From NCBI GenBank assembly GCA_965113315.1, contig OZ220368.1: a stretch of DNA of 64,000 bases; one strand, given 5' to 3'. The DNA is from Podarcis vaucheri (lineage: Eukaryota). The position numbers were made by a program, and so were the translations under genes. The notes beneath the pieces were generated by a model. It saw only the letters and a program-made list of their open reading frames with translations. It was not told where the DNA came from and did no database searches. This document shows positions 47,201 to 53,200 of this stretch, one piece after another. Numbering within the stretch: position 1 is the first letter of the stretch; every line of letters begins with the position of its first letter.

Positions 47201-50200
47201 ACTATTAAGCTACAGCGCCCCCCCCCCCATGAAAAATTATTTCTTAGTTCCTTGACTTGTAGGGGGGTTTTTCACACAAGGGTGGAGGGCAACACAAACT
47301 TTATTTTAATATTGTTTTCAAATTAAAGTTTTTTTGCAAGGTACAATGCATCTTTGAGTTGAGCATCTCTTAAGTATGCATATGCAGAAAGTTTTATTAG
47401 CTTAAAAAAAACATTTTCCCCTAATAAAGATTTTAGAAAAGCTTTAGAAGAGTAAAGGTTACTGTTGTGAAAATTTGTGACCTGTCCTATACCCCAAGGT
47501 CCCAGTGCAGGTTAAAGTAAAATGGTAAAAACAATTTAAAACAACTTGCAATCACAGAAATAAGGCAGGTCCTAAAAAAGATGGGCCAGAGAAACAAAGC
47601 GAGACAGGCAGACACCAGAGACCACAGCTACTCACCAGTTACCTCGTGAAGTTGTGGCATATTTAAACCTGAGGTTATCCTGAACTAACTCTTCTCCCCA
47701 CCACAGAAGTGTATTTCATTCTAAGTAGGCTTTGCAGTAATCGGCACTGCTGCTCAGCCAAGCATTTTGTATATCCCCCCAATGATTAGGATAAATAAAG
47801 TTACCCTGTAGATTATTTGACTGCTCTGCCTGCTGCGCTCTCCTGATAGGATGATGTAGCTGCGGTTCACTAGCAGGCACATGAGAATGACAGAGACAAA
47901 TGGCCAAACCACCGAGATGCCAGAGAAGAGGGGACTCCTGAGCAAGGAAGGTGCCACGGACCCCTAAGTCAGAGCATTCTAAGCACTGCTCATGATGCTC
48001 TGGCAGCCTGCCTTATTCTTCCCTGCCTTCTTTCGCTGCTCTCAAGAGAACGCATTGATCTGGTATTAATGCTCCGAGAACTGTGGCCTTAAGGATAATG
48101 CATGCGGTCTCAGTCTGTGTTCTGCAATAAATTATGAATTAGAGACAACCAAAGAACAAGGCTATAAATACGCTATGAGGTTTTAGTGACATAACAGGAG
48201 GCAAACTGGAAGGGGCTCTGATGTCACCGCAAGGCAAAACTAGAATCAGAATGAAAACAAAGAGCTGGACGAGGGTTTGTTTTATAAATAGGACTGGCTG
48301 TAGAAAAAAGGACCGACTGAGAATGGGGGGGGGGGACATTTCTCTGAGCTTTGCTGGTCACTTTTCCCAGCTTTCCCTTTCTTCCATGAAAACTTAACAC
48401 TTTCATTCCTACCAGGTTTTTACCATTCTGACAAATTTTGCTACCAGAACACAATGGGCCAGATATGGGCCAGTGAAATTCTTGCGATTGCCTTTCCTTC
48501 CCTACATTTTCAGCAAGCGTATTTTGCATCAAATTTAGTAATCAGCACAGAATATAGATTCTGAAGGATCTTAACACTTGCAAAAAAAATTAAAAAGCGA
48601 ATTTGTATCCTCCTTCATTGTGGAAACAGGCTTGCGATCAAACCAGCAGTGCCCATAAAAAACTCCAGCGCTGAAGAAATGGAGTCCGTGTGCCTTGCCT
48701 CATTTCCAGTTATGCCATGACTGCATTCCGGCCAGGCAGTGCTGTTCAACTCACCATCCTCCTATTCCAAAGGTTTAATGTCAGCCTATTTGCAAGGCCA
48801 AAGTTCAACCTTAGAATGTGAAATAATTACAAAAAAAGAAATGTGTGTCTGAGCATGTGCAAAGTATGTGTCCCTTCCTAGGAAGGAAATAGGAGAGAAG
48901 CCCAGGCACGCTGTTCTGAATGCACATAAGAGATTTCGCCAGTGAGATCTAAAAGTTATCCGTTACTGACATCATCAGAATGAGTCAAAAGACAGAGCTT
49001 AACTCTGTCTTTCGTTTTTTGGAAATGGCCTATTTAAAGTCAATTTGGATAAATCCACAAGAAACACCTCATCCTCACTCCTATCTCCTTCCCCTCAAAA
49101 TCATCTCTATTTGGTAGCTGCTACCTCTGCTGTTTCCAAGAACGCCACCATGGGCACTTTGCTGAGCCATGGAGAAGAGCAGAAACACTACCTGTGGATC
49201 AAATTCAGGGGCCCCATGTGCAGGAAGACCTGCTGATACGTAATTGTTTCAGTCTACAACATATGAATACAATTCTACTGCAGGAATGTACCAAGAGGGA
49301 GGAGGAATCACATATGGTCCTAGTTATGGAGAGAGCGATGCAAGGAAGTTGCCAGAATAATACTTTTTCACTTACCTGTCCAGTCTAATTTTTTTCCTAG
49401 CGCTAGCTTCTTTGAATCGTCTTTCTCCATCCTGTTAAAGGGAAATAAAATGGATGGATGACTTTTGGGAGACATATGAAGCATGCATAGGAACAAACAA
49501 AGCGAGGCTTTAAACTAAATAGATGGGCCAGATGTTAAGAGTTTAACTCAAAAGCGTTTAGGTTGCCCTGCTTTTCCTGCAGTAAAAAATTATGGGCCAG
49601 AAAAGACCACCACTAAGGCTGGATCCACGGTCAAATAGGATCAACACCATGAACTGGTATCTGCAAAAAAAGTTGCAACACAGAATGCTCCAGTCAGTTA
49701 ATTAGACTTTTTAAGTGTCTCTTCCCCGCACCCTGGTGTATTCTAAAAAGTTGCCTTTATATATATATATTGCAAACCCTGGGGTTCGCTTCAATATTTC
49801 CCTCTTCTGTGTGAGATGTGTCATTTTGACTACACAAGCAGTGGTACTAATGCCTGAACATAAGATATAGAAGGAATGATATTCTCCCCCCCCCCATGTA
49901 TAAAGGCAGCAACCATTTTGCGTGCGTCCAATTGACGTGTGACCACCGACCATCTGGCCTTGAATGGCGCCATATAAATAATACTAATAATAAATGGTGG
50001 TCCTCGTGCTATTGCACACCTTCCTTAAGAGATTTCTTCTTACTTCTAAGCTGACACACAACAAATTTTCGCTGTTTCCCCAAGGAGAAAGCTGGTTTTG
50101 CCTGGCTAACATGCTACAGTGTGCAGCTGAGTGAGTTCATGCAGGGTTACCAAATTTGATTCAGGACCACAATCCATCACATTCAAAGCCATTGCTGCTT

Positions 50201-53200
50201 CTTACCCCAGGCTCTGGTTTCAGCATTGGAAGTGTGCGTGGCTGACCCTCATCATTCAAGACCACAAAGGTCATGAAGGCACTGTTGATGTGTCTTCGGC
50301 TGACTTCCATTTCATGTCGATAAGCCTCTACACACACCCCAACCTCCATGCTGAAATTAAGAACAAGACATTTATTTTTTAGCTGGCACAGATCAAAGTA
50401 TATGTAGAACTGTGACAAGCAGGAATAGATTCCATTTTTTATTTAAAGGGCCTTTTTGTTAACTCCGCTTCTTTTGGACTTGTGAATTTATCCAAATTGA
50501 TTTTAAATAGGCAGCCCCCCCACCCCAAAGAAATGCTGTTTTTATTTATTCACAGACGAGTTAAGCTCTGTCTTTTGATTCATTTGGAAGATGTTAGTAA
50601 CTGACAACTTTTAGATCTCATTGGTGAAATCTCTTATGTGCTACATAGAGGGGGAAAGTAAAAGAAAATAAAACACCAAAAGCTTCAATCTGTCATCTTC
50701 CTGTTCAATGACTTTGCATTTGTTCTAGTGGATCATAAAATGGTCTAATTTATACAAGTGAAGTAAGTTTTCTGAAAGGCAATACCTGTTCTTGAATGCA
50801 TTATTGACAATGGCCTTGAACAGGAGGCGGTCCCCAACCTGAGATGGTCCCCTGAAATGGAACATTTCGATTGTCTTCAGGGTGGGGTGAGCGTGGCACA
50901 ATCGGCTAGGAAAGAGAGAGTATATTATGAGCACTGAAAAATCGAAACCAGTATTCTTCTGCAGGACAAAATATCCAAATACTACTTCCAACTAGTAATG
51001 GGTAAGCTGTACTCTCACACAAGAGATATTATCAGTTCTCCATTCACAAAACAACACATTTTTACCATGACACAGCGAGAGTCAGACCTAGGCTATCCAG
51101 CAACGGTCAAGCCCATACCATACATAGCTTCCTCCAAAGACACCTGGAAACCATAGCTTGCAAAGGGTGCTGGGAATTGTAGCTCTGTGAGGGGTATACA
51201 ATAGTACCCAGGAAGCCATGCACTTTAAATGTGCAGTGTGGATGTGACCTTATTTTCCCTCTGGCTCGTTGCTGTGGAGAAGCTCTTTCTCAATCCATGA
51301 ATACACAGGGAGTCCCTAAAAATGAGGGAGTTTGGGAAGCTTGGGAAGTGCCCAATTTAAGTTTCCCTTCATCTCTCTTCTTCACAAACTTATGTCATCC
51401 AGATCCCCAGAACTAAATGTCACTGTGTCACCTACAGGAAAGCAGCTAGCTTGTCTCTGCTAACAGGGAAGGGCGATCTTTGGCACTGCTCAAAGCTTTG
51501 GACCCTAAACAATTACACAAGGAAGGCTGCCAGTGCTACAACAAACTGTCCACGGTGAAGAGAGATGCAGTGCATCTGCTTAATTATGGGGAGAAGGCAA
51601 AGGTTACGCACACCAGCCTCAGCCAGAGTGAAGTGCATAAAGAGAGATGCCTTTCTGCAGCAGCCAGGGAAATATTTGGGCAGGGCCACAATCCAGCATG
51701 CAATCTGAATGCAAAAGGCCCCAAGTTCAACCCCTGGAATCTCTAGGCAGGGCTGGGAAAGACTCCTCTCTGAGGCCCTGAAGATCCAGGGCCAATCAGT
51801 ATAGATGATACTGAGCTGGACAAACCAATAGTCTGACTTGATATAAGGCAGTGTATATGTTCTCCTCACTAGAGCAACAACTCATAGAATTTACTTTCGG
51901 AAGTAGAAATGTAAATAGAGTAGGCACCAACCTACGAGCCCCACACCTTTAGGGGTCCCACTAAAAATGGATCAAAATAATACTGATCTTGAATGAAAAT
52001 TACAATCAGGCTTTCTCAGTTTTAGAAGATAATTTGCAAGGGACCCCAAGATTTCAGCTGCCTAGGAGTCTCCACATGGTTTAATCCAGCACTCTTGAGG
52101 GGGACTGTTTTCTTATAGCCTATCTGAACCAGTGGAACTTGTTTCAATGAGGAATCTCTGTCTTGTGGGACAGCAGTTAAAATAAGTCCTTCTTGGCTTC
52201 TGCAGTACCAGAGAAAGATATGGGATGGCATTCTACTACGTTTTACGCAGAACAGACCTGCTGAAATGAATGACTATGACTAAGTTAGGTTCATTAATGT
52301 CAACGGGTCTTCTCTCAGTAAAACTTAGTTAACTACCACCCAGGATGTCTATACCATTAGGATGCCTCGTCCATACCCTTTGAAACCAGGATGTTGCTAT
52401 AACTGGCTATGATGTGCGTTATGGTGCTGTGCAGGCCTAGTCAGAAGTTCTATGGAAAGGCACTAAACATTTGCCAATGGGCAAGGGCTGTAGCTCCGGT
52501 GCAGAACAATTGTCTGCACCCAGAAGGTGCCAGGTACAATCCCTGCGTTGCCAGGTACGACTGGGAGATGCCCATTCTGAAATCTTGGGGAGATGCTGCC
52601 AGTCAATGTAGTGACAATATTGGGCTAGGGTTGGACCAATGGTCTGACTTGGCATAAGGCAGCTTCCTATGGTCATCAAGAAACATTGCTAAATTTTGGC
52701 AAGTAGGTAACTAAATAGGTGTTAGAGAGCAATGCTTTCAATGATTCCTGAAGGACAGTTTTACAACTATGGAAGCAATAACACCTCTGTTATTAGTAAA
52801 TGATGGAACAGAAGTACTCCAATGAAAAGAGTAGACGTCATAGTGACAAACACATCTCTTCATATGGAGGCCAGTCCTAACCATGCACAAAGTAGGAGTT
52901 GCAGGGTCCAAACTTAAACAGCCAGGTAGCACCATCCTGCCTAGTTCTTCCCCCCCAAACCAAGTAGACCACCTTGCTGCTATTGTGGCCACATTTTCCA
53001 TCCAGGCCATGATCTGTCCTCCAAATGTGTTCCCCTGGTGGTTGGCATGTGGGGGCAGGATGAGTTCCACACTTTCCACTCTGGTCTTTTCTGCAGGTAC
53101 CATCATGCCACACTCTCTGTTCTCAAACTCTGGTAAGAAAAAAAAGGACACAATTTTATCAGAGAGGTGTCTGGAGAGGAACAATCTTCGCAGGGTTGAA

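What the first reader, a model, noticed from the sequence alone, without database searches (positions are those of the whole stretch)
48922..50641. Complementary intronic arms enclose a frame-neutral two-exon ACOT11 cassette: candidate circRNA/skipping/editing switch
Seen: 48922-49061 and 50479-50641 are ~90% reverse-complementary over ~118 nt, not a TE I recognise, and flank exons 50350-50206 and 49431-49376 (145+56 = 201 nt, a multiple of 3, phase 2 on both sides). In the ACOT11 pre-mRNA most mismatches would be A-C pairs. Known: flanking complementary sequences promote back-splicing and loop-out skipping, and A-C mismatches are preferred ADAR sites. Inference: could yield a 201-nt circRNA and an in-frame isoform missing 67 aa of hotdog domain 2, a structure-based (potentially temperature-sensitive in an ectotherm) regulator of a lipid-metabolism enzyme.
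Basis: partly seen in the sequence, partly recalled or inferred. Interest (0 to 1): 0.7.

Follow-up and report, generated by a model that had tools for sequence, protein, structure and literature searches.

The report
Inverted intron copy flanking ACOT11 exons
In a lizard's fat-metabolism gene ACOT11, about 150 bases of one intron have a backwards twin two exons away, likely a local DNA-copying scar that is predicted to pair in the RNA and is possibly edited there, but the transcripts seen in related lizards splice both enclosed exons in normally.

Summary
The arms match at 107 of 118 columns, were found only here in the genome, and enclose two ACOT11 exons (145+56 nt, frame-neutral). The switch reading is not supported. 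Four RNA runs from two relatives list only canonical joints, with no skip or back-splice, though these data miss rare forms. None of 190 spanning ACOT11 proteins lacks these 67 residues, which hold two core strands and a helix of hotdog domain 2. The predicted duplex does not melt between 10 and 60 °C. Bird introns at the upstream arm look too short to hold it. The downstream arm diverges no slower than neighbouring intron and is 19 nt shorter here than in a relative. Another single-copy spaced inverted repeat lies 167 kb away. One prediction gains weak support: a relative's low-depth RNA contig carries three A-to-G differences inside the downstream arm, absent from a DNA run of that species, two in UAG context. 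Best reading: a local inverted duplication whose pre-mRNA duplex is probably edited as a by-product. The scan reported similar cases on other DNA (TBC1D9, PCM1).

The parts
50479..50641 (-). Upstream (5') arm in the 435-nt intron between exons A and B; 145 nt after exon A, 129 nt before exon B; likely the original sequence
   Evidence: weak colinear homology to the intron read through by a skink-like Logan ORF P0017
48922..49061 (-). Downstream (3') arm, the inverted copy, in the 5.8-kb intron between exons C and D, 315 nt after exon C
   Evidence: present in relatives B and G
49003..49027 (.). Unpaired middle of the downstream arm; relative G has 19 more letters here that, read by eye, match the window's upstream arm, so this lineage likely lost them
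   Evidence: tables 4 and 8
48988..49012 (.). Perfect 10-bp local hairpin at the junction of that loss, the shape expected of a short-range template switch (inferred)
   Evidence: PMC7954356 passages
48950..48964 (-). Three RNA-only A-to-G differences on the ACOT11 strand (48950, 48956, 48964) in relative G; candidate ADAR sites
   Evidence: table 3 (X16 against X11)
50786..50905 (-). ACOT11 exon A, 120 nt, upstream of the cassette
50206..50350 (-). ACOT11 exon B, 145 nt, residues 324-372 of P0002
49376..49431 (-). ACOT11 exon C, 56 nt, residues 373-391 of P0002
43531..43599 (-). ACOT11 exon D, downstream of the cassette

Best explanation
The two arms are likely a one-off local inverted duplication of about 160 bases of ACOT11 intron sequence into the intron two exons downstream; they are predicted to pair in the nascent RNA and are probably A-to-I edited as a by-product, while the transcripts seen in relatives include both enclosed exons. 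Shown: the complementarity, the absence of further copies in the searches run, canonical splicing in relatives, and a longer downstream arm in relative G. Inferred: origin by replication template switching or templated repair; the upstream arm as the original; decay since then, including a 19-nt loss in this lineage; pairing before the short upstream intron is removed; ADAR action; at most trace circles or skipped mRNA, whose protein would lack a folded second hotdog domain.
For: Only the two arms found in the genome, with sharp ends and no extension beyond them. The upstream arm and its downstream flank align weakly but colinearly with the same intron of a skink-like ORF (score 29.6, shuffle max 17.3), as native intron would. 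Eight named bird proteins read through a 25-27-residue insert at the A/B boundary, implying a 75-81-nt intron that cannot hold a 163-nt arm. The downstream arm differs from relative G at 6 of 123 paired columns, against 3.4 expected from neighbouring intron (P 0.14, no deficit), and is 19 nt shorter. A second single-copy spaced inverted repeat (75 bp, 92%) was found in 664 kb sampled. Only canonical joints at word depth 168-289 in two runs and 14.5 in a third. Three RNA-only A-to-G differences in the arm, none with a 5' G and two in UAG, fit the reptile ADAR preference in PMC5625713.
Against: All 5 polarised transitions in the downstream arm leave G.U rather than A.C pairs on the pre-mRNA strand (P about 0.02, post hoc, assuming the upstream arm is unchanged in relatives), a hint of selection on pairing. 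All six A.C columns have the A on one arm (P about 0.017), which is unexplained. The editing rests on one contig of depth 4.45 from a run only guessed to be RNA, compared with another individual's DNA; that contig also has one A-to-T difference, so alleles or errors are present. The skink-like alignment is weak: the arm block scored 25.9 against a shuffle maximum of 23.4, and an unrelated control reached 22.3.
Confidence: 0.62

Rival explanations
1. Same origin, but the scar is inert: the 435-nt intron holding the upstream arm is spliced out before the downstream arm can pair, and the RNA-only differences are alleles or assembly errors.
For: X16 lists no piece over the upstream arm, while the long downstream intron is covered at depth 2-12 outside repeats (a hole in contigs proves nothing). 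RNA and DNA come from different individuals, the depth is under 5, and one non-editing difference is present.
Against: 3 of 4 RNA-only differences are T>C on the plus strand (P 0.026 against the run's own spectrum) and 2 of 3 are in UAG (P 0.02). The predicted duplex is very stable.
Confidence: 0.18
2. A selected long-range structure: the duplication was co-opted and is maintained to tune ACOT11 output through a 201-nt circle, loop-out skipping or slowed splicing in some tissue or condition.
For: The arms lie close to the splice sites (129 and 315 nt). Short inverted repeats suffice for circularisation (PMC4201285 passages) and promote both outcomes (PMC8330042 abstract). 5 of 5 transitions are wobble-compatible. 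The duplex is longer in relative G. The RNA data used are poor for circles.
Against: No skip or back-splice joint in 4 of 4 runs. 0 of 190 proteins have the deletion. The deletion removes strands E325-334 and E343-355 and helix H373-392. A 19-nt loss and two pair-breaking transversions are tolerated. There is no substitution deficit and no melting in the physiological range. One random adjacent exon pair in three is frame-neutral, and these exon boundaries are shared with birds that lack room for the arm.
Confidence: 0.15
3. The arms are two opposed copies of a low-copy or very old transposable element that the searches missed.
For: Most spaced inverted repeats in the sample are repeat-derived (28 of 31 had other copies within the sample, and one more had them genome-wide). 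The genome search skips very common words.
Against: Four searches found only the two arms, and the control element was detected. No match to the arms elsewhere in 664 kb and no Rfam hit on them. No target-site duplication by eye.
Confidence: 0.05

Closest known systems
Reverse-complementary matches flanking circularising exons: inverted Alus at human ZKSCAN1, HIPK3 and EPHB4 exons 11-12 (PMC4201285, passages seen)
   Same: Inverted complementary sequence in both introns flanking a short two-exon unit, longer than the 30-40 nt reported as sufficient.
   Different: Arms are single-copy, not Alu or another dispersed repeat; no back-splice joint seen here; the paper notes that not all repeats support circularisation and that G-U pairs can impair it.
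RCM-driven skipping and back-splicing, C. elegans zip-2 (PMC8330042, abstract seen); inverted-Alu loop-out skipping (PMC13019027, listing seen)
   Same: Arms loop out a frame-neutral exon block.
   Different: zip-2's RCM is conserved across five nematodes with conserved skipping; here no skipping was seen and no conservation was shown.
Pairs of conserved complementary regions, PCCRs (PMC8052449, passages seen)
   Same: Intronic long-range pairing around exons, associated with A-to-I sites.
   Different: PCCRs are defined within conserved regions of vertebrate alignments; this pair cannot exist in the bird intron and shows no substitution deficit. [quoted passage not shown]
Non-coding ADAR-edited dsRNA of metazoans, including a lizard (PMC5625713, passages seen)
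   Same: Reverse-complementary partner within 2 kb; candidate sites without a 5' G and mostly with a 3' G.
   Different: There the lizard passages concern repeats such as Penelope and SINEs; here the duplex is single-copy and editing is only suggested.
Template-switch inverted copies (PMC7954356, passages seen)
   Same: An inverted copy near its source; the perfect 10-bp hairpin at the 19-nt loss has the described shape.
   Different: Those events are short-range; the arm duplication spans about 1.4 kb, and its mechanism is not shown here.

Membership tests
RCM-flanked circRNA locus | Reverse-complementary sequences in both flanking introns | tested here: met
RCM-flanked circRNA locus | Back-splice junction reads | tested here: inconclusive
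   None listed in 4 of 4 runs; three are contig sets that drop rare forms and one is single-cell data with about 1x depth on the exons
RCM-flanked circRNA locus | RNase R resistance and loss on arm mutation | not testable with these tools
   bench tests
Loop-out skipped cassette | Skip junction as an appreciable isoform | tested here: not met
   Only canonical joints at depth 168-289 and 14.5; 0 of 190 spanning proteins lack residues 324-391; rare or tissue-restricted skipping is not excluded
PCCR (conserved long-range structure) | Both regions lie in intronic sequence conserved across vertebrates | tested here: not met
   Bird intron about 75-81 nt, inferred from read-through proteins; downstream arm 6 of 123 changes to relative G against 3.4 expected
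PCCR (conserved long-range structure) | Compensatory substitutions between the regions | tested here: inconclusive
   Only the downstream arm was laid in relatives' DNA; 5 of 5 transitions wobble-compatible, 2 transversions break pairs
ADAR-edited intronic dsRNA | Long intramolecular duplex on the transcribed strand | tested here: met
   By prediction only: 121 pairs in the MFE, net -105 kcal/mol at 37 C
ADAR-edited intronic dsRNA | A-to-G RNA-DNA differences in the same individual | tested here: inconclusive
   3 sites, one contig of depth 4.45, different individuals
ADAR-edited intronic dsRNA | Neighbour preference (no 5' G, 3' G favoured) | tested here: met
   0 of 3 with 5' G, 2 of 3 in UAG; preference from PMC5625713; n is 3
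Dispersed transposable element | Further copies in the genome | tested here: not met
   positive control

The most novel reading that the evidence does not exclude
A lacertid-specific, non-transposon inverted duplication has been co-opted as an edited pre-mRNA clamp. Pairing is kept by wobble-compatible substitutions, ADAR tunes its strength, and it diverts part of ACOT11 output into a 201-nt circle (one frame without stops) or a catalytically crippled isoform in a tissue not sampled here. Relatives with the long arm (G) and the 19-nt-shorter arm (A, B) would form a natural experiment on the birth of such a switch.
Probability: 0.1. Interest if true: 0.6.

Novelty: new member of a known kind. 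Interest (0 to 1): 0.24.

Why it matters
If the best reading holds it is ordinary: one of perhaps hundreds to thousands of single-copy spaced inverted repeats in this genome (2 in 664 kb including this one; 0.4-11 per Mb). It would show that non-repeat duplications can make edited intronic dsRNA without evident effect on splicing. If the novel case held, it would be a rare, datable example of a circRNA or skipping switch arising from unique sequence, with long-arm and short-arm species available for comparison.

Tried and rejected
Rfam scan of 43000-56000: three weak hits on a SINE-like stretch near 46070-46158, none on the arms. No holder was on record as RNA among the indexed runs: no evidence either way. 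Run X9 laid nothing: not absence. I set likeness to 80 so that relatives' upstream arms would lay on the downstream arm; none did, so covariation could not be read. Single-cell run X21 gave 318 reads, mostly on repeats, and no depth over the arms. Temperature switch by melting rejected. Antisense function: the duplex is predicted slightly more stable on the plus strand (-175.5 against -164.9), but 6 A.C against 2 G.U is not significant (P 0.29), and I did not look for a plus-strand transcript. Inversion polymorphism between the arms: no opposite-strand joint at the arm in the two DNA runs that laid, downstream arm only. Polarising the six A.C columns with the skink-like ORF gave G at 4 of 6, but the alignment was made to the downstream arm and is biased. 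A query from the hairpin at 9354-9422 returned nothing, not even itself, so it is uninformative. Five paper searches aimed at this locus or group listed no paper on this structure, on an ACOT11 circle or on this skip; only listings were seen, and most subscription journals are not in the library. No look-alike stretch in the scan's earlier windows.
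Full report
1. The observation. Self-comparison of the window finds two blocks of reverse complementarity: 48922-49010 with 50641-50554 (79/89, E 3.7e-25) and 49028-49061 with 50512-50479 (32/34). A local alignment over both introns does not extend beyond these ends. Of 118 ungapped columns, 107 are Watson-Crick; on the minus strand the rest are 6 A.C, 2 G.U and 3 others. The gene is ACOT11 on the minus strand. Exon B translates to a peptide 100% identical to a Lacerta agilis ACOT11. 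That protein (P0002) maps exon by exon from 58361 to 38135, with 4HBT and START domains. Exons B (145 nt) and C (56 nt) have AG/GT ends and encode residues 324-391.

2. Copy number and background. BLAST with each arm and patterns from both blocks with 2 and 3 mismatches return only the two arms in 1.61 Gb. The same BLAST tool gave 365 candidates for a control repeat, but it skips very common words. In 664 kb (60 fetched stretches plus the window) there are 31 inverted pairs of at least 40 bp and 80% identity with 200-10,000 nt spacers. Of these, 28 have other copies within the sample; of the remaining 3, one is a transposon, one is this pair and one is another single-copy pair. That gives 0.4-11 single-copy pairs per Mb: uncommon, not exceptional.

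3. Splicing. Four runs from relatives F and G were laid on 43300-53300: one raw single-cell run and three contig sets guessed to be RNA. The listed splice joints are the canonical 52973-50905, 50786-50350, 50205-49430 and 49376-43599, at word depth 168-289 in X15 and X16 and 14.5 in X19; X21 shows 3 reads on each of two of them. No 50786-43599 skip and no back-splice is listed. Contigs drop rare forms and the libraries are not described, so this excludes a major isoform in those samples, not a rare circle. Among 214 fetched proteins, 190 span the region and none has a 67-residue gap at 324. Four have under 55 residues covered there, including P0179, which lacks exons A+B+C. The 120 hits could not lack exon B by design. 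The unbiased sets are the 120 listed of 577 hits and 58 cluster members.

4. The predicted protein. In an AlphaFold model (mean pLDDT 59.8, 56-66 over most of exon B and under 50 over exon C) residues 324-391 hold strands E325-334 and E343-355 and helix H373-392. The region aligns to solved ACOT12. Removing core strands of a hotdog sheet would likely unfold domain 2 (inference from the fold). Frame neutrality is expected for one adjacent exon pair in three, and these boundaries are shared with birds, so it says little.

5. The duplex. The MFE of the 1.94-kb pre-mRNA segment holds 121 arm-arm pairs. Net pairing energy runs from -134 kcal/mol at 10 C to -73 at 60 C. Melting cannot make this a thermosensor; kinetic effects of temperature on transcription and splicing were not tested.

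6. History. Eight named bird proteins carry a 25-27-residue insert exactly at the A/B boundary, and a bat protein carries one of 32. Unnamed ORFs from DNA contigs read through in the same way. I infer an intron of about 75-81 nt in those birds, too short for the 163-nt arm. An unnamed ORF whose exon B is closest to skink sequences among named proteins (P0017) reads 117 codons upstream of exon B. Its degenerate back-translation aligns colinearly with the first arm block, the second block and the flank beyond the arm (scores 25.9 and 29.6; shuffle maxima 23.4 and 17.3; unrelated controls up to 22.3). This is weak but suggests that the upstream arm is native squamate intron and the downstream arm its copy. 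Whether skinks have the copy is unknown.

7. Relatives. Laying runs on 48880-49100 shows the downstream arm in B (X4) and G (X11, X16); X9 laid nothing. G has 19 more letters at 49003-49014 which, read by eye, match the unpaired middle of the window's upstream arm. The duplex was therefore likely longer, and the lineage of A and B lost part of it. The junction here forms a perfect 10-bp hairpin, the shape described for short-range template switches (PMC7954356, passages). Relatives' letters at 48958, 48961 and 49055 restore the match to the upstream arm. Window and G differ at 6 of 123 paired columns, against 3.4 expected from ten intronic pieces at 2.7%, so there is no deficit. Against pure drift, all 5 polarised transitions leave G.U pairs on the pre-mRNA strand (P about 0.02, post hoc), while 2 transversions break pairs. 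The upstream arm was not seen in relatives, so covariation is untested.

8. Editing. X16 differs from X11, both relative G, at four listed places in the arm: T>C at 48950, 48956 and 48964 (A-to-G on the ACOT11 strand) and A>T at 48928. None of the three has a 5' G, and two sit in UAG, one of them through G's own change at 48963. The chances are 0.026 for the type and 0.02 for the context. Reptile ADARs avoid a 5' G and favour a 3' G (PMC5625713, passages). The contig has depth 4.45, its run is only guessed to be RNA, and the individuals differ, so this is a hint.

9. Mechanism. Most likely (0.62): a templated inverted duplication created the downstream arm; the nascent transcript pairs across exons B and C in some molecules; ADAR edits the duplex; linear splicing proceeds normally, and any circle or skip is a trace by-product. 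The view that many circRNAs are splicing by-products is argued in PMC8516420 (abstract). Rivals: inert scar without editing (0.18), selected switch (0.15), missed transposon (0.05).

10. Relation to known kinds. It looks like a reverse-complement-flanked circRNA or loop-out locus (PMC4201285, passages; PMC8330042, abstract), but the defining junctions were not found. It fails the conservation criterion of PCCRs (PMC8052449, passages; ACOT11 absent from the 5 supplementary files held, and larger tables may not be held). It is a candidate ADAR substrate. Five paper searches listed nothing on this structure. The scan's own notes describe similar local inverted copies around TBC1D9 and PCM1 exons in another genome; these are unchecked here and were seen after my reading was formed.

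11. Verdict. The feature is real and the switch is unsupported, with a weak but specific editing signal. New member of a known kind; interest 0.24.

Noticed in passing
window 50907-52973: The intron upstream of exon A is covered by contigs at depth 21-35 in RNA runs X15 and X16, against 168-250 for the exons, while X19 shows little of it: a possibly retained or slowly spliced intron next to the duplex.
   Followed up: no
window 47045-47105 with 51791-51851 and 52614-52671: A second, repeat-derived inverted pairing (about 80%) encloses exons A+B+C (321 nt, frame-neutral). Relative G lacks 51680-51950, which removes one partner. A coral-snake protein, P0179, lacks these 107 residues; no link is shown.
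   Followed up: partly
L017:2418-2492 and 3401-3475 (G000:C25:48862418-48863475): Another single-copy spaced inverted repeat, 75 bp, 92%, spacer 909 nt; gene context not examined.
   Followed up: partly
window 50625, 50621, 50595, 50585, 50579, 50501: All six A.C columns have the A on the upstream arm (6 of 8 transitions in one class, P about 0.017). Strand-coordinated mutation, chance or selection: unexplained.
   Followed up: partly
window 48464-49405: The X16 contig over this stretch has 53 other letters in 950, against about 2.7% in ten other intronic pieces. Only 18 lie in 48880-49100, so the surroundings of the arm also look more divergent.
   Followed up: partly
window 9354-9512: Near-perfect hairpin, 69-nt arms, 94%, 21-nt loop; the genome search skipped it, as it does very common words, so probably a repeat.
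   Followed up: partly
window 33741-33834 and 35313-35414: Local direct duplication of about 100 nt, 90% identical, 1.6 kb apart.
   Followed up: no
L050:3538-7056: An element of about 3.5 kb with 120-nt perfect terminal inverted repeats and many paired copies genome-wide; likely a young DNA transposon.
   Followed up: no
window 56720-56617: A 34-residue block at this exon of hotdog domain 1 is missing in annotated isoforms of Varanus, two birds and a seal (P0006, P0007, P0072, P0083, P0120), so annotation does capture skips elsewhere in ACOT11.
   Followed up: no
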